DNA of 64,000 nt from Mobula birostris (lineage: Eukaryota): contig NC_092374.1 in NCBI RefSeq assembly GCF_030028105.1, positions 58,723,016 through 58,787,015 of the forward strand, written 5' to 3'. A program made the translations under genes and the position numbers. The notes below the pieces were generated by a model. It was not told where the DNA came from and ran no database searches. It saw only the letters and a list, made by a program, of their open reading frames with translations. This document shows, one piece after another, positions 606-35,404 of the stretch; positions within the stretch are counted from its first letter, which is position 1; the number at the start of each line of letters is the position of its first letter.

Positions 606-3600
606 GGAAAGTGAGGGAGAGCAGCCAGATACATATTGATACCAATGACATAAGAAGGAAAAGTAAAGGGGTCCTGAAAAGAGAATTTAGAGAGCTGGGT
701 AGAAAGCTGAGAAGCAGGAACTGCTGGGTAGTAATTTCTGGATTGCTGCCTCTGCCATGTGCCAGTGAGGGTAGAAACAGGATGATTTGGCATATTAATG
801 CATAGCTGAGAAGCGGGGCAGGGCTTCAGGTACTTGGACCATTGAGATCTCTTCCGAGGGAGGTATGACCTGTTCAAAATGATGGGTTGCACCTGAACCC
901 AAGGGGAACTAATACTCTCGCAGGCAGGTTTGTTAGAGCTGTTGGGGAGGGTTTAAACTAATTTGGTAGGGGGTTGGGAACTGGAGTGAAGGGACTCGGG
1001 ATAGGACGGATGGTAACAAAGCAAAGATAGTGTGCAGTCAGACTGTCAAGTAGGGTAGGCAGATGATAGGACATAATTGCAGCCAGCAGAGTGAGTATCA
1101 GTGCATTAGGGATGCAGAATCAAAAAGGCTACCAAATACAGTACTCAAAGTGTTATATTTCAATGCACAGATTATAAGAAATAAGGTGGATGACCTTGTT
1201 GCACTAATACAGATAGTCAGGTATGATGTTGTGGCCATCACTGAATCATGGCTGAAGGGTAGTTGTAATTGGGAGCTGAAAGTCTAAGGTTATACGTTAT
1301 ATTGGAGCGATAGGAAGGTAGGCAGAGGGGCTGGCATGGCTCTACTGGTAAAAAATAGCATTAAATCAGAAAGATGTGACATAGGAATGGGAAATGTTGA
1401 ATCCTTGTGGGTTGAGTTAAGAAACTGCAAGGGTAAAAGGATCTTGATGGCAGTTATATATAGTCCTCCCAACAGTAGCTCGGATGTGGACCGCAGATTA
1501 CAATGGGAAATAGAAAAGGTGTCTCAAAAATGTTATGATAATCATGAGAGATTTCAACATGCAGGTCAATTGGGAAAATCAGGTTGGAAATCCATCTCAA
1601 GAGAGTGAGGCTGTTAAATGCCTAAGAGATGGCGTTTTAAGAGCAGTTTGTCATTGAGCCTACTAGGGGATCAGCTATACTAGATCGGGTGTTATGTAAT
1701 GAACCAGAGGTGATTAAGGAGCTTAAAGTAAGAGAACCCTGAGGAGGCAGTGATCACAATATGATTGAGTTCAACTTGAAATTTGACAGGGAAGGAGTAA
1801 AGTCTGACATCCCAGTATTTCAGTGGAGTAAAGGAAGTTACAACGTGAAGAGAGAGGAGTTGGCCAAAGTAAATTGGAAGGAGATGCTGGCAGGGATGAC
1901 AGCAGAGTATCAATCATGCAAGTTTCTGGAAAAAATGAGGAAGGTGCAGAACAGATGTATTGCAAAAACAAAGAAATACTCAAATGGCAAAATAGTACAA
2001 CCTTGGCTGACAAGGGAAGTCAAAGCTAATGTAAAAGCAAAAGAGAGGGCATACAACAAAGCAAGAATTAATGAGAAGACAGAGGATTGGGAAGCTTTTA
2101 AAACCCTACAGAGAGCAACTGAAAGAATCATTAGGAGGGAAAAGATGAAATATAAATGCAAGCTAGCAAATCAGTATCAAAGTGGATAGTAAAAGCTTTT
2201 TCAAGTATGTAAAAAAGACAAGGACATGGCAGATGAACTAAATAAGTATTTTGCATCAGTTTTCACAGTGGAAGACGCTAGCAGTGTGCCAGGTGTTGAA
2301 GGCTGTGAGGGAAGAGAAGTGAGGGCAGTTACTATTACAAGGGAGAAGGTGCTCAAAAAAACTGAAAGATCTAATGGTACATAATTCACTCAAACCAGAT
2401 GAGCTGCACCCTAGGGTTCTGAGAGAGGTAGTGATAGAGATTATGGAGGCATTAGTAATGATCTTTCAAAAATCACTGGAGTCTGGCATGGTGACTGAAG
2501 ACTGGAAATATTGCAAATGTCACTCCACTCTTTAAAAAAAAGGACAGCAGCAGAAAGGAAATTATAGTCCTGTTAGCTTGACCTCTGGGTGGAAAGATGT
2601 TGGGAGTCAGTTGTTAAGGATGAGGTTATGGAGTACTTGGAGACACAGGACAAGATAGGACTAAGTCAGCATGGTTTCCTTAAGGGAAAATCTTGCCTGA
2701 TAAACCTTTTGAAATTCTTTGAGGAGATTACAAGTAGGATAGATAAAGGGAATGTAGTGGATGTTATATATCGGGACTTCCAGGAGGCCTTTGACAAGGT
2801 GCCACACATGAGACTACTTACCAAGTTAAGAGACCATGGTATTACAGGAAAGTTACTGGCATGGTTAGAGCATTGGCTGATTGGTAGGAGACAGTGAGTA
2901 GGAATAAAAGGATCCTTTTCTGGTTGGTTGCCAGTGACTAGTGGTGTTCTGCAGTGGTCTGTTTTGGGACTGCTTTTTATGCTGCATATCAATGATTTAG
3001 ATGATGGCTTTGTTGCCAAGTTTGCAGATGATATGAAGATTGGTGGAGGGGCAGGTAGTGGTGTGGAAATAGGTAGACTCCAGAAGGACTTAGACAGATT
3101 AGGAGAATGGGCAAGAAAGTGGCAAATGAAATACAATGTTGAAAAATGCATGGTCAAGCACTTTGGTAGAAGAAATAAATGTGCAGACTATTTTCTAAAT
3201 GGGGAGAAAATTCAAAACTCTGAGATGCAAAGGGACTTGGGAATCCTTGTACAGAACAACCTAAAGGTTAACTTGCAGGTAGAGTCAGTGGTGAGGAAGA
3301 CAAATGCAAAGTTAACATTCATTTCATGAGGTCTAGAATACAAGAGCAGGTATGTGATGCTGAGGCTTTGTAAGGCTCTGGTGAGACCTCACCTTGAGTA
3401 TTGTGAATAGTTTTGGGCTCCTCATCTAAGAAAAGATGTGCTGGCATTGGAGAGGGTTCAGAGGAGCTTCAGAAGGACGTTTCTGGGAATGAAAGGGTTA
3501 TCATATGAGGAACGTTTGATAGCTCTGGGTCTGTACTCCTTGGAATTTAGAAGTATGTTGGGGGTGGGGGAATCTCATTGAAAGGGTGACCATTCAAATG

Positions 3601-3965
3601 TTGAAAGGCCTAGAAAGACTAGATTTGGAAAGGATAGTTCCCATGAAGGGGGAGTCTAGGACAAGAGGGCACTGCCTCAGGATAGAGGGGCACCCATTTA
3701 AAATAGATGCGGAGAAATTTCTTTAGCCAGAAGGTGGTGAATTTGTGGAATTTATTACTGCAGGCAGCTGTGAAGGCCAGGTTGTTGGGCAGATTTAAGG
3801 CAGAGTTTGGCAGGATGCGGCATCAAAGGTTATGGGAAAAAGGCCGGGGAGTGAGGCTGAGGAGGGGAAGAAAGGATCAGCCATGATTGAATGGCGGAGC
3901 TGACTCGACGGGCCAAATGACCTAATTCTGCTCCTGAGTCTTATGGTGCTGTGGTCTTATGGTCT
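606..3965 (+). mobile_element. Degenerate CR1 LINE (ORF1 esterase C-terminus, ORF2 endonuclease and RT, 3' tail)
   Basis: HIDTNDI...VVISGLLP (SGNH-like), VLYFNAQ...DVVAITESWL (endonuclease), QHGFLKGKSCL, DFQEAFDKVPH, KFADD; TTATGGTC-type tail. Many frameshifts and stops. Confidence 0.9.
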
Positions 3966-4749
3966 AGGAGGTGCAGGAGCATCTGGGCTAAAACAGCCAG
4001 ATTAGATAACAGCTGTTTCCCTCAGGCTATTGAATACTCTGCCACCACCGAGGTCTTGTCGCAGGACAGTGAGCTATTTACTGTTTACCTGTGCTGTGCA
4101 CTTCATGCATTTTGACACACAAAATGAAATACAGCAGACTGCAGGTAAAATCACAGAGCGGAATACATACCATGGAACTCAGTCACAAACCTGCAGAGCT
4201 CAAGAATTCCAGCTTTTACAAACATACAAAATCATGATCAGTTGGCACTGTAAGATCCTGCTGCTGACAAACTACAGTGGCTGTACAGCATCTTTATTTC
4301 TGGGCAGACACTGAACCATGTCTGATATGGAGCTCCAACTTTTAGGAATATCTTGAAGGGGTTCTCATTTTGTCTATTTGCTGTTAGATATACCTCCAGT
4401 GATGTCCTGTGAGCTAGACTGTGTTTGAAATGGCCTGTCAATTTTCTACATTTTCAAAGCCACCATCAGAGACACCTAAGGTAATGAATCATTGCAGACT
4501 GTGAGCAATAGCTGATGTGTTCAAAGGCAAATGGCTCGCTGCACCTTTCACATTTAGTGTACCTTTGATACTAATTATTGCTTTTCATTTAATATTTCAT
4601 CCTTTTGCAACATCCAAGAACTATAATGCACACTTTTTATTGATAACTTACCATTAAAGCAAATGATTGTCAAGTCTATAGCATCAATCAGGTGTACTAT
4701 GACTGCAAGAAAACATATTACCCAAGGGTGTTCAATAAACTCCAGTCAA

Positions 4750-5900
4750 AGCAATGGCTACAATCTATATCACTGCCATATGTCATGAAATTTGTTGTTT
4801 TGTGACAGCAGTGCATTGTAATACATAGTAAAACAAAAACCTATAAATTAGAAGTATATTTTATATACAAAATTAAATTAAATAAGCAGTGCAAAAAGAT
4901 GGGAAAAATACTCAGGCAGTGTTCATGGCTTTATTGTCCCTTTAGAAACCTGATGGTCAGGAGAAAAAGCTGTGTCTGAAATGTTGAGTGTGTCTTTAGG
5001 CTGCTGTGCCACCTGCCTGATGATAGTAATGAAAAGAGGACATGTCCTAGGTGATGGGGGTCCTTAATGATGGACACTGCCTTTTTGAGGCATTGCCTTT
5101 TGAAGCTGTCCTGGATGCTGGGGAGGCCAGTGCCCATGATGGAGCCTGCTGAGTTTACAGCTTTTTCATGTGCAGTGCAGTGGCCCCTCCATGCCGGACA
5201 GTGATACAACCGGTTAGAATACTCTGCACAGTACATCTGTAGAAATTTATGAGTGTTGTTGGTGACATATCAAGTCTCTTTAAACTCAGAATGAAACATA
5301 GCTGCAGTTGTGTCGACTTTGTAATTGCATCAGTATGCTAGACCCTGGATAGATCCTGAGATGTTGACACCCAGGAACTTGAAATTGCTCAACCTTTCCA
5401 CTTCTGATCCCTCAATGAGGACTGGTTTGTGTTCCCTCAACTTTTCCTTCCTGAAGTTCACAATCAATTCCTTGGTCTTACTGATGTTTAGTGCAAAGCT
5501 GTTGCTGTAACACTCTCAACCAGCTGATCTACCTCACTCTTGTATGCCTCCTCATCACCATCTGAAATTCTGCCAATGATAGCTGTGGGCAAATTTATAG
5601 ATGTTTCAGCTGTGCCTAGCCACACAACTGTAGGTTAGAGCGTAGAGAACTGGGCTAAGCAAGCATCCTTGAGGTGCACCAGTGTAGATTATCAGCAAGG
5701 AGGAGATGCTCTGAGGGTGTGATAGTGTTGAATGTCAAGATGTCAATAAACAGCAGCCTGACATGGGTAATGCTATTGTCCAGGTGATCCAAGGCCAAGT
5801 GGGAAGCCAATGAGATTGCAAGCACTGTAGACATACTGTGGTGATAGGCAAATTGCAGCTAGTCCAAGTCCTTGCTTAGGCAAAAATTGATTCTAGCCAT
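4750..5900 (-). mobile_element. Rex1/Babar-type LINE, RT and 3' part
   Basis: Minus-strand CLKKAVSIIKDPHHLGHVLFSLLSSGR motif and RT remnants. Confidence 0.7.
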
Positions 5901-5904
5901 GGCC

Positions 5905-7790
5905 AACCTCTAAAAGCAGAGGGAGGTAGTCACCTCTACCTGCAAGAGGCAGGCAACCAGGTGACTGTCAAGATCGTTCTCCTCAATAATGTCACTTTGG
6001 ATGCTTTTGGGAGGGCCAACCTACCAGGAAGAAGCCACAGCGAGCAAGTCTCTGGCAGTGTCTGGCTCTGTGGCTCAGAAGGGAAGCAGGGAGAAGAGGA
6101 GTGCAATAGTGTTCAAATATATAAAGAGTAAAAGGGAGGTGAGAGTGGATATCAGACTACTGGAAAATGATGCTGGAGAGGTAGTAATGGCGAAGGAACT
6201 TAAGTATTTTGTGTCACTCTCCACTATGGAAGACACTAGCAGTATGCCAAGAATTTGAAAGTGTCAGGAGGCAGAAGTGAGTGTTTTTGCTATTACTAAG
6301 AAGGTGCTTGGGAAGATGAAAGGTCTGAAGGTAGATAAATCACCTGGACCAGATGGACTCCACCCCAGTGTTCTGAAAGGGGAAGCTGAAGAGATTAGTA
6401 ATCATCTTTCAAGATTCACTAGAATCTGGGATGGTTCTGGGGGACTGGAATATTGGAAATATTACTCTACTCTTTAAGAAGGGAAGGAGACAGAAAAAAG
6501 GAAATTATATGCCAGTTAACCTCACTTTAGAGGTTGGGAAGATGTTGGACTCCATTATTAAGGATGAGGTTTGGAGTGCTTCAAAGCACATGATAAAATA
6601 GGCCAAAGTCAGCATAGTTTCCTTAAGGAGAAATCTTACCTGACAAATCTGTTGGAATTCTTTGAGGAAACAACGAACACAATAGACAAAGGAGAAGTCG
6701 GTGGGTGTTGTTTACTCGGATTTTCAAAAGAACTTTGACAAAGTGCTGCACATGAGGCTGCTTAACAAGATAAGATCCATTAGTATTACAGGAAAGATAC
6801 TAGCATGGATAGAAGATTGGTTGACTGGCAGGAGGCAAAGAGTGGGAACAAGGGCCCTTTTCTGGATGGCTGATGGTGACTAATGGTTTTCCGCAAGGGT
6901 TGGTGTTGGGAATGCTTCTTTTCACGTCATATGTGAATGATTTAAATGATGGAATTGATGGCTTTGTGGCCAGGTTTATGGACGATATGAAGATAGGTGG
7001 AGGGGCAAGTAGTGTTAAGGAAGCAGGGAGACTGCAGGAAGATATAGACAGATTTGGAGAATGAGCAAAGAAGTGGCAGAAAGAATATAGTGTAGGAAAG
7101 TATATGATCATGCACCTTGGTAGAAGGAATAAAGGCATATCCTCGTGCAGGCTTCCTTGAAGGTTAACTTGTTGGTAAGGAAGTCAAATGCAATTTTAAC
7201 ATTCACTTAGAGAGGACTAGAATATAAAAGCAAGGATGTAATGCTGAGGTTTTATAAGGCATTGGTCAGATCATACTTGGAATATTGTGAGCAGTTTTGG
7301 GCCACTTATCTAAGTAAAAATTTGCTGGCTTTGGACAGGGCCGAGAAGAGGTTCACGAGAATGATACTGGGAATAAAACGGTTAAAGTATGAGAAGTGTT
7401 TGATGTCTCTGAACCCTTACTCGCTGGAGTTTAAAAGAATGAGGTGAGATTTCATTGAAATTCATCTAGTATCAAAAGGTCTCGATAGAGAGGATGTTTC
7501 CTATAGTGGGTAAATCAAGGATTAGAGGGCACAGTCTTTGACTAGAGGGATGTCCATTTAGAACAAAAATGAGGAGGAATTTCTTGAATCAGATGGTAGT
7601 GAACTTGCAGAATTTGTTGCCACATGCATTGAATATATTTAAGGCAGAAGTTGATAAGTTTTCGATTAGCAAGTGTATCAAAGGTTACAGGGAGAAGGTA
7701 GGAGAATGATGTTGAGAGATAATAAATCAGATCTAATGGAATGATGGAGCAGATCTGATGGGTCCCCTATGTCTTTTGGTCTTATGGTCT
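5905..7790 (+). mobile_element. Degenerate CR1 LINE
   Basis: KSPGPDGLHP, DFQKNFDKVLH, GFPQGLVLG, RFMDD, FYKALVRSYLEYCEQFW; TTATGGTC tail. Confidence 0.88.
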
Positions 7791-7794
7791 TTTG

Positions 7795-8975
7795 TTCTGA
7801 CATCTGCCTCCAAGACAGAGATTACAGGGTCATCAGTTGCTGCACGTATTTGCACAGGTGTAGTTACATTCTCCCCTCAAAGCATGCACGAAAGGCATTC
7901 AGTTCATCTAGGAGTGAAGCATCACAACCATTTATGATATTAGGTTTTATAAGAAGTAATAGCCTGCAAATACTGCCAGAGCTGATGTGCATCCGATTGC
8001 ATCTCGAACCTCAATCAGAATTGTCTTCTCACTCCTAAAACCACAAGTTGTATCTGGGGATGTTGTATAGTTCTGGGTCACCAGTCTTGAATGCCATAAA
8101 TCTAGCCCCAGCAGACTACAAATCTCCTGGTTTATCCAGGACATTTGGTTTGGTTATGTCTGATATGTTCTTAAAGGCACTACTTATCCACACAGGTCTT
8201 GCCGAAGTTGATAACTGTGGCGTACTCAGACCCAAATGAATCCCTAAATATTGTCCAGTCCACCAACTCATATAAGTCTTGTATGCACTCCTTCGCCTCC
8301 CTTGACCATACCTTCTTGGTCCTCACCACTGATGCTGCCGTCTTTCGTCTCTGCCTATATCCTGGGAGTATAAGTACAGCCAGATGATCAGACTTGCCTA
8401 AGTGCGGGTATGGGATGGCACGGTAACCATTCTTGATGGTGGCATTAGTGGTCAAGTGTGTTAGCTCCTCTGGTTCCACAGGTGATACACTGGTAGTAGT
8501 TACATAGAACAGTACAGGCCCTTTGGCCCACAATGTTGTGCCAACCCTTAAACCCTGCCTCCCATATATCCCCCTACCTTAAATTCCTCCATATACCTGT
8601 CTAGTAGTCTCTTAAATTTCATTAGTTGTTCAGACTATTAGTTGAAATCTCCCACGATGATAGCAAGGGCATCAAGATGTGCAGTATTGTGCCTGCTGAT
8701 TACGTTTCTTAGCTCCTCCAGTGTTGCCTGACGTTGGCCTAAACTGGAATGTACACTGCTACCAGGATGACAGCAAAAAACACCCAGAAGATAAAATGGA
8801 CAGCATTTGACTGCTTGGTGTTCCAGTTCAGCTGAACAGGACTAACAGAACTGACATGTTTGTACACCACAATGAGTTAATCATACAGCACACTCCATCT
8901 CCTCTGCCTTTAAGACTCAGCTCTCCTGTCTTTGCAGAGAATCGTGAAGCCATTGGAGTAGTGTACTTCTCAGAC
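7795..8975 (-). mobile_element. Rex1/Babar-type LINE endonuclease region, with a short CR1 3' end nested at about 8500-8625
   Basis: YRAIPYPHLGKSDHLAVLILPGYRQ...KVWSRE...DWTIF motif. Plausibly the upstream part of the element at 4750-5900. Confidence 0.65.
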
Positions 8976-8984
8976 AACAGCAAC

Positions 8985-9660
8985 TGCATGTGGAGGCAAA
9001 TAGCCTAGTGGCAGGGTGTCAAGAAACAAACATTCTCTCGATGTCAGTAAATGTGATCTAGTCATTAACTTCAACAAGAAGGCAGAGCATATGCCTGTCT
9101 CCATCAATTGTGCTAAGGTAGAGATGATTGAGAGTTTGAAGTTCTGAGGTATAAGTACCACCAATAACTAGTCTAGCTTCAGCCACATGGATGCTATAGC
9201 TGCAAAACGCTCACCACCACCTCTACTCCCAAGGAAAGGATAAAGGCTAAGGAAATTTGGCATGTCCCCATGACTCAGAAATTTTCATTTGATGCACCAT
9301 AGAAAGCATCTTATTCAGGTACATCACAGATTGACATGGTAGCTGCATTGCTAAACTGCTCCACAGACCACAAGAAATTGCAGAGTTGTAAGCATAATAA
9401 AGTCCATCACACAAATCAGCCTCCTCTCTAGTGACCCTGTCTACATTTTCCGTTACCTTGGAAAAACCGTCAACATCAAGACCCCACCCATTCCGGTCAT
9501 TCTCTCTTCTCCCCTCCTATTGGCCAGAAGATAAACAAATCTTGAGAACAGATGCCACCATCTGCTGTGAAGAGAACTTTGAACATACACTAAAGAGTAT
9601 TGATTTCTCAGTCTACCTGGTCATAGCCTTGCCACTTTATTCCTCTACCTGCACTGAAAT
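8985..9660 (+). mobile_element. Old Rex1/Babar-type LINE 3' fragment
   Basis: Remnant VESLKFxGI and LRKFGMSP-like motifs. Confidence 0.55.
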
Positions 9661-9689
9661 TTCTTGATAAGTTACTTGTTATTTTTCTT

Positions 9690-10104
9690 AAGTGTTAAAA
9701 GTGCAAAATTCACTGACAGTGGCCATACAAAGTTGTGAAGAAAGCATTCTGCATGTTGGCTCTCATCAGTCAAGCCAACAAGCTTAGGAATAAGGACTCT
9801 CTGTTGGGAGTTATACAAGCCGTTATGAGGCTAACCTTGAGTTTTATGTAGGTTTGGTCACCTTGTTATAGGAAAGGCATTGTCAAGCTGGAGAGAATGC
9901 ATAAGAGATTTACAAGGATGCTGCCTGTACTAGAGAGCCTGAGTTATAGGGAGAGCTTGGTCACATTGGATCTTTATTTCTTGGCATTTAGAATGAGGGA
10001 TGACCTCATAGAAGCCTATAAAATCATGAGGGGTATGAGGTAACTTTTTTCCATAGGGAGTCTAAAGCTAGAAGGCACAATACAAAAGGGGAAAGATATA
10101 AAAA
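9690..10104 (+). mobile_element. CR1 3' fragment
   Basis: Similar to the RT C-terminal region of other CR1 copies (RFTRMLP..LSYRE). Confidence 0.7.
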
Positions 10105-10163
10105 ACACACACAAAATGCTGGTGGAACACAGCAGGCTAGGCAGCATCTGTAGGAAGAGGTAC

Positions 10164-10199
10164 AGTCGACGTTTCAGGCCAAGACCCTTCATCAGGACT
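10164..10199 (-). ncRNA. Minimal type I hammerhead ribozyme motif, intact core
   Basis: Minus strand reads AGTC-CTGATGA-A-GGGT-CTTG-GCCT-GAAAC-GTC-GACT: stem I AGTC/GACT, core CUGANGA and GAAA, short stem II, GUC cleavage triplet, palindromic ACGT in place of stem III. Confidence 0.75.
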
Positions 10200-10574
10200 A
10201 ACTGAAAGAAGAGGTAGTAAGAGATCTGGGAGGGGGAGATCCGAAATGATAGGAGAAGACAGGAGGAAGAGGGATGGAGCTAAGAGCTGGAAAGTTGACT
10301 GGCAAAAGGGATACCAGGCTGGAGAAGGGAGAGGATCATGGGACAGGAGGCCTAGGGAGAAAGAAAGGGGGAGGGAAGCACCAGAGGAAGATACAGTGAG
10401 GGACAGGGAGCAGAGAGAGAGAGAGAAATGGGAAAATATATATTTTTCTCCCTTTTTCAGCCTGGTATCCCTTTTGCTAATCCACTTTCCAGCTCTTGGC
10501 TCCATCCCTCCCCCTCCTGTCTTCGCCTATCATTTCGGATCTCCCCCCTTCCCTTACTATCTCTTCTTTCAGTT

Positions 10575-10610
10575 AGTCCTGACGAAGGGTCTCGGCCTGA
10601 AACGTCGACT
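10575..10610 (+). ncRNA. Minimal type I hammerhead ribozyme motif, intact core; predicted cleavage after 10606
   Basis: AGTC-CTGACGA-A-GGGT-CTCG-GCCT-GAAAC-GTC-GACT; same architecture as the copy at 10164-10199. Confidence 0.75.
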
Positions 10611-10680
10611 GCACCTCTTCCTAGAGATGCTGCCTGGCCTGCTGCGTTCACCAGCAACTTTGATGTGCGTTGCCAGTGTT

Positions 10681-10861
10681 CCCGCCCACATTTTGGTCCG
10701 GCCCATCCGAACAGTACGCATGCGCAAGCCTCTCGCTTTTACTTCCGGTCGTTTTCATGCCGGCGCCCGGTCAGGGTGAGCGTGCAGTACAGCCAGCCGT
10801 ACCCGAGGCAGGGCGCAACTAACAGACATTTGATGACAGCGTTAGCCTGCTGCCGGTGACA
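10681..10861 (+). promoter_or_regulatory. FXN core promoter / 5' leader
   Basis: GC box CCCGCCC at 10681-10687, NRF1-like TACGCATGCGCA at 10715-10726, ETS/GABP ACTTCCGG at 10741-10748. CpG-rich from about 10580 to 11230. No TATA box seen. Confidence 0.8.
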
Positions 10862-10981
10862 ATGGCAGGCATTCTGAACCGGAGTCGCCTCTGCCTCTGC
10901 CCAATGATCCAACAGTTTGCTCGCTACCCGAGGCCGACAGACATCAGGGGACTGCGGCACGCAAATAGCCGCTTTCCCAAG
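10862..10981 (+). CDS. FXN: Frataxin coding exon 1 (mitochondrial targeting presequence, MAGILNRSRLCLCPMIQQFARYPRPTDIRGLRHANSRFPK)
   Basis: ATG in strong context (ACAATGG). Arg-rich, acid-poor 40-codon peptide ending at donor AAG|GTGAGT (phase 0). Lies in a CpG-rich segment downstream of NRF1/ETS motifs and joins in frame to the later exons. Confidence 0.85.
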
Positions 10982-12189
10982 GTGAGTCCTTGATCCAGCT
11001 GCTGCTGTTTTATTGTTGTCTTTTTACGCCTCCATTCACGTGCTACTGGCTTTCCCGGCCGCTATTCCGCGCCCGACATTCCCTCAATTCCGCCCTCTCG
11101 GCTTCATCCGACCGGATGTCCCGCCCTCTTCTTGTTTTGCGATGTTATTGGTGCACCGTTGCCCCCGCGTGCCCCTGGAATCGTTGACGTCATGCTCGTC
11201 TGTTTAAGCCAATCGTGAGCGCTCTAAGCCAACTCACGGTCAACTCAACACCTGTCCTCTACCTCGGGCAAAACTCTCAATGCTGGGCAATTCAGCAAGT
11301 CAGGCAGCATTTATGGAGGGAATCTCTGTCTCACACGTATCTAGAACACGCCTTCTCTACACTCCACTCCGGTTTTTGTGGCTGGTTGATGGCCCATCAA
11401 ACAAATACAGTTCGGCAAATGTGAAAGTAGAAAGGCAGAACCATCATCTGGGGAAGAAAACTGATACTTTCGGTTTGTGTCATCACAGCTTTTGGCCATA
11501 TAATTAGTGTGCGTACTTGCTACAGAGGGAGTGCAACGACAATTTACCAAATGGTTCAAGGTATTCAAGATTAAAGATCGTTAAAAATCATTACACAGGG
11601 AGAACGAAATAATGGTTACTCCGGATCCGATGCAGCGCCAAAGACACACAAGAAGGAAAAGAACACAATAATTTTAAAAAACACAATAAACATTAATACA
11701 TAAGATAGATGTTGGGTTTGTTGTATGCAATAAGCTGGAGACTGCATTTTTCAGTTTAATAGAATGGAGGGAAGGGGAATCCAATAAAAACTTATGTTCT
11801 AAAAGGGCTCAAGAAGCTTGGTGAAGGGCGGCTGATTCTCCTACTCTTGGACTGGAGTATGGGGGTACACTTAAGAATGAGTAAGCTGCAAGTAACAGCC
11901 TTACTGAAACAGAAAGTGAAAGGCTAAATAGTGGACAAATGGAGAGAATGGAAAGAAAACAGCAGTTCACACAGAAGAAACCGAAAATCCTTCATTAAGT
12001 ATATAAGTGAGAATGAGAGAACAAATTGAATGGATTATGGATAGCAGTGGGCCAACAAGATTGCAACTACTGGCCTAGTGAGGTGTTTGGGAAGGATTTA
12101 ATCCTAATTGGAAAGGGGATAATCATGGTAGAGTGGACACATAATGGGGAGATGGAATTTAGAACAGTGAAGATAGAAGATTTAAACAG

Positions 12190-12475
12190 CGTTATTTGCC
12201 ATATGTACATCAAAACATGCAGTGAAATGCGTCATTTGCAACAACGGCCAACAATCAAGGGTTTGACAATTGTTGCCATACTTCCAGCACCAACATAGCA
12301 TGCCTATATCTTACTGTCCCTCACCGGACACCCTTGGGTTTGTGGTAGTAAACCAGATCACCCGGAGGAATCACACAGGGTCACAGGCAGAATGCACGAT
12401 TTCCTTACTGTTAGTGGCAGGAATTAAACCCCAATAACTGGTGCTGTAAAGCACTGCCCTAACGTCTACGCTATA
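12190..12475 (-). mobile_element. tRNA-derived SINE, V-SINE/HE1-like
   Basis: Reverse-complement V-domain-like AAACCAGATCACCCGGAGGAATCACACAGGGTCACAGG and a B-box-like segment. Confidence 0.5.
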
Positions 12476-14199
12476 TGTTAGAAGTGATATATTTTGGCAG
12501 AAAGAAAAATGACAAACTATATAGATGAAATGATGCACTTCTAAAGGGTATGTAGGAACAGAGGAACCTCAGCGTAGCAGAGCTGATCGAAAGAGAGGCC
12601 AGTAATGTAGATGCGGTGCCAAGGATGGGAGCATCAAGTACAAAAGTGGTGAGGTTATGTTGCATGAAACAATGTTTGGGCCACATCTGGAGAAATGCAT
12701 CTAATTTTGGACGTTTATAGATATTTAGATCCTAAAAGTGGTGCAGAAAAAATTTACTAATATAGTTCCAGGATGAGGGAATTCAACCATAAGCTTGGAG
12801 TGGGGACGCTGAGCTGTTCTTAGAGCAAAGAACACTGAGAAGAGGTGTATAAGGTCATGACTAGTTTAGATGGGATAGAGGTTCAAGAGTAAAAGGTGTC
12901 CACATTTTTATATAATTCTTATAATTGTTGAATGATGTTTTCATTTGCATGTTGCACCAACACACCACAGAAAATTCCTAATACATGTATGTAGCGATTA
13001 AAGTTGAATCTGATTCTTAATCCTTGATCAAATCTGTGGCATGGACCTGAAATCACAATCATTTCAGAGAGTTCAACAAATCCATCTTGTCAATTAAATT
13101 TTATTCATTTCTTGATACTTTTTTGTTGTTTCATTGACATTTTTATATGATCATGGTTCTGTAAAGTGGCAATTACATACTTTTATCCATGGAAAAGTGC
13201 CAGTATAAACTTATCATTAACTCTACTTCATTAGTCATATGATGGGTGATACACTTAACGCGTAGTGATGTTCAAAGTGGAAATTGATATTGACATTTTT
13301 CTGGCTGGCTCTTCGTGCTCTGACTTCTGCCTTGATTCTAATGTCAAAAACCAAACCCCATGGGAAAGACATTTGGATAGGTAGATACTTTATTGAACCC
13401 AGAGGAAATTACAATGCCATAGAAGCATTACAAGAACACAGATATACAAATACTGGAAGAGAAGTAAGAAAGAATTAAAAAATAAGTTACCTCAAGCAGT
13501 CTAAAAGGATAGCGTCATCACTTACCCAGCTACAGATTGACTCATTATAGAGCCTGATGGCCGAGGGTAGGAATGACTTCATGTAAGTGCTCTTTGGAGC
13601 AGCGCAGTTGTTACAAATATAATTTTAAGCTCCTTAGGAAAATCAGGATACTCACAGCCACAGAGACAACATGTTATAGAGCAAGTAGTCAACATCATAA
13701 AAATATCACAGAAGGGACCCACTTGTAGCCCAGTTTCTTTTGCACCACAAATTTAAACTAGTTATCTGGTTAGTTCCATTCCCATGCTACTTTTTACCTC
13801 TCCATTTAAGTTCCTGTCCAATTTACTTTTAAAAGTTCTTATTGAATTTGTTTCTGCATCCCTATCAGCCCACACATTATACATCATAAAAGCTTTGTAA
13901 AGAAAAATCTCATTTCCTTGTTTGATTCTTTTCTGGTTACCTTGTATGTTTCGTTGTAACAATTTCTTCTTGTTCCACTAGATGGAGCCTCAGATAGACT
14001 GCGTTAATGCATTCCACTACTAGAGGGTGTTAAATGTCAGCAAGTGTTTTTTACACACATGAAGAACTACAATCATAATAAGTGTGGTGCTGTGTGAAAT
14101 CCTTCTCATTGCAGAAGCAACATAACATCATAGAGGAATACAGCGGAAACAGTTTGACCTTCCACACTGAGTAGTTGCTCAGATTTTGCTATGTTTTAG

Positions 14200-18713: not shown

Positions 18714-18793
18714 AATTTCCATTCAGAAAAATGTTTAAAGCTCCAAACAAAAGAAATCCATTCCTCAATTTTAAGAAGAATGGAAAATACAAG
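18714..18793 (+). CDS. FXN: Frataxin coding exon 2 (NFHSEKCLKLQTKEIHSSILRRMENT-S)
   Basis: Branch-like CTAAT and acceptor CCTTTTGCAG, donor AAG|GTACCC. 80 nt, phase 0 to 2, exactly the phases needed to join exon 1 to exon 3. The peptide itself is poorly conserved. Confidence 0.75.
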
Positions 18794-20553: not shown

Positions 20554-20674
20554 CTTGCTGGATGAAACCACCTATGAAAGAATTGCAGAGGAAACACTGG
20601 GTCTTTTATCTGACTTCTTTGAAGATCTTGCAGATCAGTCTTTTGTTCCAAAAGACTATGATGTAACATTTGCG
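20554..20674 (+). CDS. FXN: Frataxin coding exon 3 ([41 protein letters not shown]), acidic helix 1
   Basis: Matches the frataxin [14 protein letters not shown]...FFEDLAD...DYDV motif. Acceptor TTCTTCTCCGTAG, donor GCG|GTAAAA; 121 nt. Confidence 0.97.
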
Positions 20675-28151: not shown

Positions 28152-30464
28152 CGAGGGGTGATTGATAAGTTTGTGGCCTAAGGTAGAAAGAGTCAATCTT
28201 ACAAAACCTAGCACATTTATTTTTCAACATAGTCCCCTCCTACATGTACACACTTAGTCTAGCAGTCGTGGAGCATACAGATCACTTCTTTATAGAAGTG
28301 GTCCACAGCAAGGGTGATTGATAAGTTTGTGGCCTAGGGCAGAAGGAGATGAGTTATTAACTTCAAACTTCCTGCATAATCGCTCAGAGTTGAACTGCAT
28401 GTGCATGTAACGAGAGCCTCTTGGACCTCCAGGTGGTCCACAGCAGGGGTGATTGATAAGTTTGTGGCCAGAAGGAGATGAGTTATGCAGCTCTCGTTAC
28501 ATGCACGTGCAGTTCAACACTATGAGTGAAAATGCAGAAAGTTTGAAGTTAATAACTCATCTCCCTCTACCTTTCCACCTTAGGCCATGAACTTATCAAT
28601 CACCCCTGCTGTGGACCACCTGGAGGTCCAAGACACCGAATTCTACAAAGGAGGGATCCGTATGCTCCACGAACGCTGGACTAAGTATGTAAATGTAGGA
28701 AAAATAAATGTGTAGACACGAGGAATTCTGCAGATGCTGGAAATTCAAGCAACACACATCAAAGTTGAGACTGTACTTCTTCCTAGAGACACTGCCTGGC
28801 CTGCTACGTTCACCAGCAACTTTGATGTGTGTTGGTTGAAAAATAAATATGCTAGGTTTTCTAAAATTGACTCCTTCTACCTTAAGCCACGAACTTAAGA
28901 TCCCTCGGACCTTGAAGGAGACTAGTGTTGAAATTGCGGGGGTCCTGGCAGAAATATTTAAAATGTCGCTGTCTACGGGTGAAGTGCCGGAGGATTGGAG
29001 AGTGGCTCATGTTGTTCCGTTGTTTAAAAAAGGATCGAAAAGTAATCCGGGAAATTATAGGCCGGTGAGTTTAACGTCAGTAGTAGGTCAGTTATTGGAG
29101 GGAGTACTAAGAGACAGAATCTACAAGCATTTGGATAGACAGGGGCTTATTAGGGAGAGTCAACATGGCTTTGTGCGTGGTAGGTCATGTTTGACCAATC
29201 TGTTGGAGTTTTTCGAGTAGGTTACCAGGAAAGTGGATGAAGGGAAGGCAGTGGATATTGTCTACATGGACTTCAGTAAGGTCTTTGACAAGGTCCCGCA
29301 TGGGAGGTTAGTTAGGAAAATTCAGTCGCTAGGTGTACATGGAGAGGTGGTAAATTGGATTAGACATTAGCTCGATGGAAGAAGCCAGAGAGTGGTGGTA
29401 GAGAATTGCTTCTCTGAGTGGAGGCCTGTGACTAGTGGTGTGCCACAGGGATCAGTGCTGGGTCCATTGTTACTTGTCATCTGTATCAATGATCTGGATG
29501 ATAATGTGGTAAATTGGATCAGCAAGTTTGCTGATGATACAAAGATTGAAGGTGTAGTAGACAGTGAGGAAGGTTTTCAGAGCCTGCAGAGGGACTTGGA
29601 CCAGCTGGAAAAATGGGCTGAAAAATGGCAGATGGAGTTTAATACAGACAAGTGTGAGGTATTGCACGTTGGAAGGACAAACCAACGTAGAACATACAGG
29701 GTTAATGGTAAGGCACTGAGGAGTGCAGTGGAACAGAGGGATCTGGGAATACAGATACAAAATTCCCTAAAAGTGTCGTCACAGGTAGATAGGGTCGTAA
29801 AGAGAGCTTTTGGTACATTGGCCTTTATTAATCGAAGTATTGAGTATAAGAGCTGGAATGTTATCATGAGGTTGCATAAGGCATTGGTGAGGCCGAGTCT
29901 GGAGTATTGTCTTCAGTTTTGGTCACCAAATTACAGGAAGGATATAAATAAGATTGAAAGAGTGCAGAGAAGGTTTACAAGGATGTTGCCAGGACTTGAG
30001 AAACTCAGTTACAGAGAAAGGTTGAATAGGTTAGGACTTTATTCCCTGGAGCATAGAAGAATGAGGGGAGATTTGATAGAGGTATATAAAATTATGATGG
30101 GTATAGATAGAATGAATGCAAGCAGGCTTTTTCCACTGAGGCAAGGGGAGAAAAAAACCAGAGGACATGGGTTAAGGGTGAGGGGGGAAAAGTTTAAAGG
30201 GAACATTAGGGGGGGCTTCTTCACACAGAGAGTGGTGGGAGTATGGAATGAGCTGCCAGACGAGGTGGTAAATGTGGGTTCTTTTTTAACATTTAAGAAT
30301 AAATTGGACAGATACATGGATGGGAGGTGTATGGAGGGATATGGTCCGTGTGCAGGTCAGTGGGACCAGGCAGAAAATGGTTCGGCACAGCCAAGAAGGG
30401 CCAAGAGGCCTGTTTCTGTGCTGTAGTTTCTATGGTTCTATGGTAACTTATCAATCACCCCTTG
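28152..30464. mobile_element. Mariner-derived palindromic non-autonomous element hosting two later insertions
   Basis: TA-CGAGGGGTGATTGATAAGTT ... AACTTATCAATCACCCCTTG-TA termini. Transposase C-terminus FYKGGIRMLHERWTKYVNVG at about 28640-28700. Internal TIR-like copies. Confidence 0.85.
28898..30444 (+). mobile_element. Young 5'-truncated CR1 LINE (RT), inserted in the mariner right TIR
   Basis: Single reading frame with only two nonsense codons (29218-29220, 29368-29370). GVPQGSVLGP and KFADD motifs; (TTCTATGG)2 tail. Duplication AACTTA at 28892-28897 and 30445-30450. Confidence 0.95.
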
Positions 30465-30892: not shown

Positions 30893-30990
30893 ACTGGTGT
30901 GCTGACAATAAAGTTGGGGGAACCTTTGGGAACTTACGTGATTAACAAACAGACTCCAAACCGACAGATCTGGCTCTCATCTCCAATCAG
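30893..30990 (+). CDS. FXN: Frataxin coding exon 4 ([33 protein letters not shown])
   Basis: Frataxin/CyaY signature [19 protein letters not shown]. Acceptor CCTTTTTATAG, donor CAG|GTATGT; 98 nt. Not in the ORF track. Confidence 0.98.
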
Positions 30991-34340: not shown

Positions 34341-35256
34341 ACTGATCTGAAGATGAAAATGAAAAAAGATCTGAAAAGGATTGTGAATTGTGGTCAGAAA
34401 TGCAAGTTTTTCCTCTTCCTTTACAATGTTCAGAAAATTAAAGCTCATTCATTACTGGGCTGTTTGATTAATTTTCTTCATGGGTATTTTTTTCCAAAAT
34501 TATTGCATGGGTTAGGAATTAATTGGAGTCAATGGAGAAAATGTAATGAAACTGCTAATATGTTAATGAAAATATGTTCCCATTTATCATTATTCTGGAG
34601 TTTCTTTGATCTTTATTGCAGCAGCTGTTGGTAGTCATTTCTTATTCAGAACTATTAAGGTTTTGCAACTTCTTTCTTCAAAGTTAGTCAAACTTGAATA
34701 TCTGAATCTATGCCATCTGGAAGGGTCTTTCTCTTGGCTCTACTTTCTCTGAACCTTTATTTTAATGATGGCATCTTAAAACATGGACTAGATGGAGGCA
34801 GGCAAGTGATCCTGTTTGACATTTGAGGGCCCTAGCATCATCAAGTTAGTGAAATGATATTAACTTCACAATGATGCCTAAAGGGGTTGAGTATGATGTG
34901 TGGCAATCCTGTCAATCTGGAGCTTGGAAATAAACTTGCGGTAACATGTCGTCATGAATTTTGATAAGTTTGCTTCAATTTGAAAAGCTCATTAGAATTG
35001 GCTACCCTGCTTAAGCCTCTCCTTCCTTAATCACACTGCATCCTTTAAGTAGCTTTCAGATGTCACTGGTAGTGACCTATCCTTTGTATCATTTACAGTG
35101 GCTCCTTGCAGGTGAATTCCTGCCTCTGCCCACCAGACAAGTCAAAAAAAGTCTTGGATCTTTCATCTAAAGGAAATCCTGCTGACAGGATGCCATGTTG
35201 TGAGGTTTAAACTGTTCTCATCAGTTTTTTTTTCCCCTCTCTATATTTTTCCTCAG

Positions 35257-35404
35257 TGGTCCTAAACGATATGATTGGACTGGAAAGAATTGGATCTATT
35301 CTCACGATGGAGTTTGTTTACATGAACTGCTCACAAAAGAGTTCTCCACGATGTTCAAGACCAAAGTGGATGTACTTGCAGTCGTTGATATGAGTTATGT
35401 GTGA
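35257..35404 (+). CDS. FXN: Frataxin coding exon 5 ([49 protein letters not shown])
   Basis: Signature SGPKRYDW...WxYSHDG..LHELL. Long pyrimidine tract ending CCTCAG; stop TGA at 35402-35404. Spliced CDS is 567 nt = 188 aa + stop. Confidence 0.97.

What the first reader, a model, noticed from the sequence alone, without database searches (positions are those of the whole stretch)
10105..10672. Back-to-back intact hammerhead ribozymes in an inverted repeat abutting the frataxin promoter
Seen: two arms of about 215 bp in inverted orientation (spacer about 135 bp) end about 8 bp before the FXN GC box. Each carries a complete minimal type I hammerhead core, one per strand and pointing outward (minus 10164-10199, plus 10575-10610). 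Established: Penelope-like elements carry minimal type I hammerheads in their terminal repeats and often insert with an inverted 5'-truncated copy. Inference: the + motif could cut read-through or upstream-initiated RNA about 255 nt before the FXN ATG, and the minus motif could cut divergent upstream antisense transcripts. Alternatively, any RNA spanning both arms folds into a long dsRNA that sequesters the ribozyme. It may also be just a recent neutral insertion.
Basis: partly seen in the sequence, partly recalled or inferred. Interest (0 to 1): 0.8.

Follow-up and report, generated by a model that had tools for sequence, protein, structure and literature searches.

The report
Penelope retroelement stub beside frataxin promoter
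The two back-to-back hammerhead motifs are real, but they are the tail ends of a very common Penelope-like jumping gene that landed head-to-head just upstream of the frataxin promoter, so this looks like ordinary retroelement debris rather than a gene switch.

Summary
Both minimal type I hammerhead motifs and the inverted arms are real. They are the 3' ends of two 5'-truncated copies of a Penelope-like element (RT plus GIY-YIG, Neptune-type linker), joined head to head. The 'spacer' is the longer 5' part of the left copy. The + motif occurs 20,082 times letter for letter in this genome. Of 30 such loci, 3 have a second intact motif back to back, so about 2,000 equivalent pairs exist, and the layout is in print (PMC4209133). 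Any RNA entering from the promoter or from upstream copies the complementary arm first, so the motif ends up in a -401 kcal/mol duplex. Published motifs of this class did not cut as monomers or without the element's protein. Spliced contigs from three runs guessed to be RNA begin at 10744-10761, about 140 nt downstream of the cut site (weak hint). The left arm decays at CpGs like its siblings. A relative about 3% divergent appears to share the right-hand junction. Verdict: ordinary insertion; a regulatory ribozyme is unlikely.

The parts
10104..10445 (-). Left copy: 5'-truncated 3' end (pseudo-LTR) of the Penelope-like element, older subfamily, short (tail-less) end
   Evidence: Matches positions 1839-2177 of natural copy L031; 85-90% to older-subfamily copies L088-L106; 5' extent to about 10445
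10164..10199 (-). Minimal type I hammerhead motif, predicted cut 10168/10167
   Evidence: 231 exact copies genome-wide
10431..10453 (.). Head-to-head junction inside a short AT-rich palindrome; no true spacer
   Evidence: Sequence; comparison with subfamily 5' sequence
10447..10673 (+). Right copy: 5'-truncated 3' end of the same element; older-subfamily type to about 10549, youngest-subfamily type from 10550; short (tail-less) end
   Evidence: differs from the left arm at 6 of 9 diagnostic columns
10575..10610 (+). Minimal type I hammerhead motif, predicted cut 10606/10607
   Evidence: 20,082 exact copies genome-wide, 0 for the reversed control
10682..10748 (+). CpG-island promoter motifs: GC box 10682, NRF1-like 10717, ETS-like 10742 (motif names recalled)
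   Evidence: CpG o/e 0.72-1.24 over 10601-11200 against 0.12-0.35 over 9801-10600
10744..10981 (+). First exon, inferred to be FXN exon 1; ATG 10862, donor after 10981
   Evidence: Contigs of runs guessed to be RNA cover 10744-10981, 10747-10981 and 10761-10979; 40-aa basic leader
20554..20674 (+). FXN coding exon (121 nt)
   Evidence: only acidic exon candidate found; identity read from the peptide by recall, not searched
30893..30990 (+). FXN coding exon (98 nt)
   Evidence: PF01491 match E 5e-9; splice sites
35255..35365 (+). FXN last coding exon (part)
   Evidence: PF01491; frataxin structures E 6e-16

Best explanation
This is a passive insertion of a very abundant endonuclease-bearing Penelope-like retrotransposon (Neptune-type linker). 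Reverse transcription began just 3' of the hammerhead and stopped early, and two truncated 3' ends were joined head to head, which is the standard insertion form of these elements (architecture shown here; mechanism from literature). The distal 124 bp of the right arm are of a younger subfamily than the rest, so the unit was probably reworked by conversion, template switching or a second insertion (inferred). The hammerheads are inherited parts of the element's terminal repeat. At this locus they most likely never cut: FXN transcripts seem to start about 140 nt downstream, any RNA crossing the unit from outside folds into a ~215-bp duplex that buries the motif, and the motif lacks helix III. 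Both cores are intact because about a quarter to a half of such copies still are; the CpG-island edge may have helped the right one.
For: Family copies carry an RT plus GIY-YIG ORF directly 5' of the same repeat. Exact + motif: 20,082 copies; G-C variant: 4,596; left variant: 231. In 500 kb of grid-sampled DNA: 68 3'-end fragments, 41 spanning the core, 10 intact, 13 outward pairs. Of 30 loci taken by the exact motif: 9 with an inverted partner, 6 partners spanning the core, 3 intact. Three further pairs with both exact motifs were confirmed as adjacent head-to-head copies. Whole-unit fold -401.5 kcal/mol, z -28.8; stem I and II probability 0.0 when both arms are present. The left arm keeps 3 of 7 family CpGs against a 65% mean; 5 of 19 core-spanning fragments at loci chosen without regard to the motif are intact. 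Literature passages read: PMC4209133, PMC11167929, 10.1101/2021.04.23.441226, PMC3846280.
Against: Both cores intact is the minority state: 0 of 3 both-core pairs in the grid sample, 0 of 6 among loci chosen by the right arm and 0 of 1 among loci chosen by the left arm. The right end appears to be kept in a relative, which fits age as well as selection. Both arms lack the one-sided 30-40-bp tail usual for such pairs. The unit ends only 8 bp from the GC box and its CpGs form the edge of the island. Only assembled contigs, not raw reads, were available, so rare transcripts are not excluded.
Confidence: 0.85

Rival explanations
1. Non-catalytic effect: upstream antisense RNA from the FXN promoter, or read-through from the PIP5K-family gene upstream on the same strand, forms the long duplex, which is edited, diced or triggers decay, and so insulates the promoter. 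The hammerhead chemistry plays no part.
For: Very stable duplex; a same-strand PIP5K gene has exons 58-70 kb upstream of the window; right junction apparently kept in a relative.
Against: Outward pairs are generic, 13 in 500 kb. The arms have drifted to 87% with indels and no sign of co-maintenance. The 3' end of the upstream gene was not located.
Confidence: 0.08
2. Co-opted ribozyme: transcription starting inside the unit, between the two motifs, gives RNAs with a free hammerhead. The + RNA runs into FXN as a long 5' leader and is cut in trans-dimers with the abundant element RNAs or with help from the element's protein.
For: Both cores intact. Pseudo-LTRs are proposed to hold promoters, in one case a two-way TATA-like motif (PMC3846280, passages). 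The junction here is an AT-rich palindrome. Element-derived sequence is plentiful in the contigs of the RNA-guess runs.
Against: Contig 5' ends at 10744, 10747 and 10761 in two studies, where the DNA contig continues (weak hint). Even single-arm RNAs are not predicted to form stems I and II. G10.1-U11.1 replaces the usual G-C. A monomeric minimal motif did not cut and dimers cut weakly (PMC4209133); the Anolis motif needed protein and no RNA-seq ends were seen at its cut site (PMC11167929).
Confidence: 0.04
3. DNA-level contribution: the right arm's CpG-rich 3' end extends the CpG island or supplies promoter activity to FXN, whatever the RNA does.
For: CpG o/e rises to 0.98 in 10601-10800, which includes the arm end.
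Against: Arm CpG retention (5 of 7) is within the range of other copies. The GC box, NRF1-like and ETS-like motifs all lie outside the arm.
Confidence: 0.03

Closest known systems
Minimal hammerheads of metazoan Penelope-like elements (Cervera and de la Pena 2014, PMC4209133; results and discussion read)
   Same: Core-only type I motif, 4-bp helix I, extra nucleotide between 9 and 10.1, palindromic 15.2-16.2, thousands of dispersed copies. The paper reports dual motifs about 100-700 bp apart on opposite strands; here they are 375 bp apart.
   Different: Helix II is 4 bp, not the 7-8 bp of the Schistosoma families; G10.1-U11.1 instead of G-C; copy number is higher than the 2,000-9,000 quoted there.
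Endonuclease-bearing Penelope-like elements, Neptune clade (Craig et al., 10.1101/2021.04.23.441226; 12 passages read)
   Same: RT followed by GIY-YIG, CX2-5CxxC linker motif, 5' truncation, inverted truncated copy adjoining the 5' end, two classes of 3' end.
   Different: At this locus both arms have the short end and the right arm is a subfamily chimera. Clade assignment rests on the linker motif only; no RT tree against named elements was built.
Poseidon element of Anolis, PAc (Frangieh et al. 2024, PMC11167929; main text read)
   Same: Vertebrate element with a helix-III-less hammerhead in the pseudo-LTR and two reverse-transcription start sites defining the tail.
   Different: Different clade by the linker motif; activity was measured there and not here.
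Non-LTR retrozymes (10.64898/2026.07.22.740005; abstract, introduction, part of methods and 7 passages read)
   Same: Type I hammerheads related to pseudo-LTRs.
   Different: Retrozymes are direct tandem arrays that allow cis dimers; this unit is an inverted pair with one motif per strand.
Host-domesticated hammerheads of amniote introns and rodent Clec2 3' UTRs (recalled, not looked up)
   Same: Hammerhead near or in a host gene.
   Different: Those are recalled as low-copy, conserved and active as monomers; this motif has 20,082 identical copies and no helix III.

Membership tests
Endonuclease-bearing Penelope-like element | [quoted passage not shown] | tested here: met
   In longer family copies: RVT_1 in 4 of 7 ORFs and GIY-YIG in 2 of 7, all below Pfam cut-offs (19.7-27.5 vs 29.6 bits; 19.8-20.3 vs 22.6). 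One 594-aa frame of L031 shows both sets of motifs. The window copies hold no ORF.
Endonuclease-bearing Penelope-like element | Hammerhead motif in the terminal repeat 3' of the ORF | tested here: met
   Core at position 2085 of 2213 in the L031 copy, after the ORF stop.
Endonuclease-bearing Penelope-like element | 5' truncation with an adjoining inverted truncated copy | tested here: met
   Window unit; 13 outward pairs in 500 kb; 9 of 30 loci.
Endonuclease-bearing Penelope-like element | 30-40-bp tail usually on one end of the unit | tested here: inconclusive
   Family: 15 of 30 ends at 2171-2190 and 15 of 30 at 2205 or beyond. This locus: both ends short, 2177 and 2179.
Neptune clade | CX2-5CxxC zinc-finger motif between RT and endonuclease | tested here: met
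   C-X4-C-X2-C in P0001 and P0004; criterion. The motif is shared with Nematis and Naiad.
Neptune clade | RT phylogeny with named Neptune elements | not tested
   No named reference sequences were fetched.
Penelope/Poseidon clade | Linker zinc finger absent | tested here: not met
   Motif present.
Minimal type I hammerhead | Conserved core C3-U4-G5-A6-N7-G8-A9, G12-A13-A14-A15.1, U16.1, H17 | tested here: met
   Both motifs pass my descriptor; 0 hits in each of 10 shuffles of 500 kb.
Minimal type I hammerhead | Helix I of 4-5 bp, extra nucleotide after A9, palindromic 15.2-16.2 | tested here: met
   sequence.
Minimal type I hammerhead | G10.1-C11.1 pair (highly conserved per PMC4209133) | tested here: not met
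   G-U in both window motifs; the G-U form is the family's commonest exact variant, 20,082 against 4,596.
Minimal type I hammerhead | Self-cleavage as dimer or with protein help | not testable with these tools
   No assay; contigs cannot show RNA ends.
Rfam hammerhead families | Covariance-model match | tested here: not met
Non-LTR retrozyme | Direct tandem units each with a hammerhead | tested here: not met
   Inverted pair; no matching direct repeat family in 8000-13000.
Domesticated host ribozyme | Locus-specific conservation above neutral | tested here: inconclusive
   The left arm decays like its siblings. Only 30 nt of the right end could be seen in one relative, and they do not include the motif.

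The most novel reading that the evidence does not exclude
A two-way promoter at the head-to-head junction fires outward and gives a long FXN 5' leader with a free hammerhead. That leader is cut only when it dimerises with element RNA or binds the element's protein, so a minor FXN isoform would report Penelope activity: a retroelement sensor wired into an essential mitochondrial gene.
Probability: 0.03. Interest if true: 0.75.

Novelty: new member of a known kind. Interest (0 to 1): 0.12.

Why it matters
As it most likely stands, little: one of thousands of equivalent retroelement stubs, a few of which should sit beside promoters by chance. The family is more useful than the locus. An estimated 80,000 intact-looking minimal hammerheads and near-identical young copies make this genome good material for asking whether these motifs cut in vivo and whether the G10.1-C11.1 pair matters to the element. 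If the novel case held, it would be an example of a Penelope ribozyme co-opted to regulate an essential host gene; I found none in the four literature searches run.

Tried and rejected
Rfam, at gathering and E-value thresholds: no hammerhead. The run search listed no holder on record as RNA; this is no evidence on expression. The three runs guessed to be RNA have zero depth at 10705-10740 and no listed contig bridging 10673; a part without cover proves nothing by itself. I tested whether paired arms generally come from different source elements: most pairs differ at fewer diagnostic columns than random copies (background 0.44; for example 1 of 31, 4 of 30, 5 of 28, 8 of 31, 10 of 27), so this was not supported as a rule and the window pair (6 of 9) is at the high end. 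I looked for 5' ends piling at the predicted cut site (position 2113): 1 fragment in the window, no cluster in the grid sample. No target-site duplication was evident by eye at 10104/10673. FXN exon 2 was not fixed: none under strict filters, 19 candidates under loose ones, the most plausible 18714-18793. The end of the upstream PIP5K gene was not located. Of 60 grid stretches requested, 10 did not exist and 50 were used. The literature search for frataxin + hammerhead ribozyme + promoter gave 2 papers, unrelated by title. Earlier-findings look-ups returned nothing. Supplements of the cited papers were not read; they may list cartilaginous-fish motifs.

Full report
Observation. The features described are in the sequence. 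Two inverted arms of about 215 bp lie at 10104-10332 and 10447-10671, 87% alike over 231 columns. Each holds a core-only type I hammerhead motif, minus 10164-10199 and plus 10575-10610; the core pattern matches only these two places in the window and never in 100 shuffles. Rfam models miss them, which is unsurprising for motifs without helix III. The GC box, NRF1-like and ETS-like motifs follow at 10682, 10717 and 10742 in a CpG island (motif names recalled). Frataxin-domain exons lie downstream on the + strand. That the first exon at 10744-10981 belongs to FXN is inferred from position, its basic 40-aa leader and the spliced contigs; exon 2 was not fixed.

What it is. The right arm matches dispersed copies across the genome at 93-98%. 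Six long copies were followed upstream and share up to 2.2 kb. Their frames give weak RVT_1 matches (4 of 7) and GIY-YIG matches (2 of 7), all below Pfam's cut-offs. One uninterrupted 594-aa frame shows RT motifs, a C-X4-C-X2-C linker and the GIY-YIG domain. This is an endonuclease-bearing Penelope-like element; the linker points to the Neptune group by the criterion in 10.1101/2021.04.23.441226, but no tree with named elements was built. Against natural copy L031 the left arm covers positions 1839-2177 and the right arm 1951-2179. Older-subfamily copies extend the left match to about 10445 and the right match to 10447. The 'spacer' is therefore element sequence, and the unit 10104-10673 is two truncated 3' ends joined head to head.

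How common. The + motif occurs 20,082 times letter for letter (9,871 + 10,211; reversed control 0), the G-C variant 4,596 times and the left variant 231 times. In 50 grid-sampled 10-kb stretches (60 asked, 10 absent) there were 68 3'-end fragments, 41 spanning the core and 10 intact, which scales to about 80,000 intact motifs (Poisson range 38,000-148,000), and 13 outward-pointing pairs; shuffles gave 0 motifs. Both-intact pairs are a minority: 0 of 3 both-core pairs in the grid, 0 of 6 and 0 of 1 in two BLAST-chosen sets. Among the first 30 loci with the exact motif on contig C1, however, 9 had an adjoining inverted partner, 6 partners spanned the core and 3 were intact. Among the first 100 listed matches I counted by eye 6 minus/plus pairs within 1.7 kb; the 3 closest were fetched and are adjacent head-to-head copies. 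Three in 30 of 20,082 gives roughly 2,000 double-intact pairs (wide error; the sample is from one chromosome end). At about 0.5 per Mb and an assumed 20,000 promoters, 2-5 should fall within 200-500 bp of a start site by chance (inference). The layout is in print: dual minimal motifs about 100-700 bp apart on opposite strands (PMC4209133), inverted truncated copies and head-to-head junctions with palindromes (PMC3846280).

History of this copy. The left arm has the older subfamily's marks throughout. The right arm shares them to about 10549 and then, from a short deletion onward, has the marks of the youngest subfamily; the arms differ at 6 of 9 diagnostic columns. Both ends are of the short class, whereas most pairs carry a tail on one side. 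A conversion, template switch or second insertion is likely; I cannot tell which. One DNA contig of organism B aligns over its whole length to 10644-11318 with 20 other letters in 666 (3%) and includes 30 letters of the element's end without gaps. That is one letter short of the tool's bridging rule, so it is suggestive that the right junction predates the split; it does not reach the motif. The left arm keeps 3 of 7 family CpGs, below the 65% mean, and the right 5 of 7. The left losses fall at N7, loop II and 11.1, which my descriptor tolerates; 5 of 19 core-spanning fragments at loci chosen without the motif are equally intact. Across 41 copies, core CpG positions are changed 13.7% of the time but core non-CpG positions only 0.8% against 5.2% elsewhere. 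This fits a core held constant among source elements and decaying after insertion; base composition and subfamily differences contribute to the contrast.

Would it cut here? Three things argue against it. First, geometry: the motifs point outward, so read-through from upstream copies the left arm's complement before the + motif, and antisense RNA from the promoter copies the right arm's complement before the - motif. The unit folds as one duplex of -401.5 kcal/mol (z -28.8), and stems I and II have probability 0.0 there; they were also 0.0 in the three single-arm contexts tried, though stem I forms in the isolated 38-mer. Second, chemistry: the motif has only a 4-bp self-complementary ACGU for helix III (-3.1 kcal/mol), and the two motifs cannot dimerise in cis because they lie on opposite strands. 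A Schistosoma minimal motif did not cut as a monomer and cut weakly as a dimer (PMC4209133). The Anolis motif cut only with the element's protein, was dispensable for insertion in vitro, and showed no RNA-seq ends at its cut site (PMC11167929). Third, transcription: contigs from three runs guessed to be RNA, in two studies, end at 10744, 10747 and 10761 with no unaligned letters at that end, where the DNA contig goes on. This is a weak hint that FXN starts about 140 nt downstream of the + cut site. No raw reads were available, so rare upstream RNAs are not excluded, and a same-strand PIP5K gene upstream could supply read-through.

Verdict. Observation confirmed with small corrections; interpretation partly supported. 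Best reading (0.85): passive Penelope-like insertion. Rivals: non-catalytic duplex effect (0.08), co-opted ribozyme on transcripts starting inside the unit (0.04), DNA-level promoter contribution (0.03). Searches listed no paper on this locus or on hammerheads at frataxin promoters; the library lacks most subscription journals. Earlier AI notes from other genomes describe the same kind of stub; they are not independent evidence. Novelty: new member of a known kind. Interest 0.12.

Noticed in passing
window 28721-28840 (FXN intron): A second, 120-bp head-to-head pair of the same family; its + arm begins exactly at the first base after the predicted hammerhead cut (position 2113 of the L031 copy), and this pair has the one-sided tail. 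One case only.
   Followed up: partly
L039, L047, L054, L073, L083 and others; equivalent to window 10571-10579: 5' ends of young copies cluster at positions 2077-2085, the 5' edge of hammerhead stem I, right after a pyrimidine tract and an acceptor-like CAG/TAG (about 6 of 21 copies at 90% or more, counted by eye). Loose ends in the RNA-guess runs also gather at 10573-10576. It may mark a splice acceptor or the start of the copied RNA.
   Followed up: partly
genome-wide: The commonest exact motif has G10.1-U11.1 (20,082) rather than the canonical G-C (4,596); the most successful young subfamily seems to have given up that pair. CpG decay of the G-C form adds to the gap.
   Followed up: partly
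L114 (G000:C1 near 2.26 Mb), L109, L138, L139: Copies 98.5-100% identical to L031 over 130-150 bp, so the family was active very recently.
   Followed up: no
L032:930-3581 (-): A near-full-length element with a longer N-terminal frame (RT at residues 391-553 of 632), broken by a stop before the endonuclease part, with an inverted terminal repeat at 3668-4084.
   Followed up: partly
window 9800-10100: Another interspersed repeat (9-10 hits in the grid sample) abuts the left end; it looks like a CR1-type LINE fragment (recalled).
   Followed up: no
window 11281-11320: Short minus-strand fragment in FXN intron 1 resembling the element's 3' end; it could pair with the right arm (pair I4; high repeat depth).
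   Followed up: no
G000:C6:58652869-58664529: PIP5K-family exons on the + strand 58-70 kb upstream of the window, matching the PIP5K1B-FXN order recalled for mammals.
   Followed up: no
L107, just 3' of the element copy: A GC-rich tandem repeat of about 65-70 bp units directly after a head-to-head pair.
   Followed up: no
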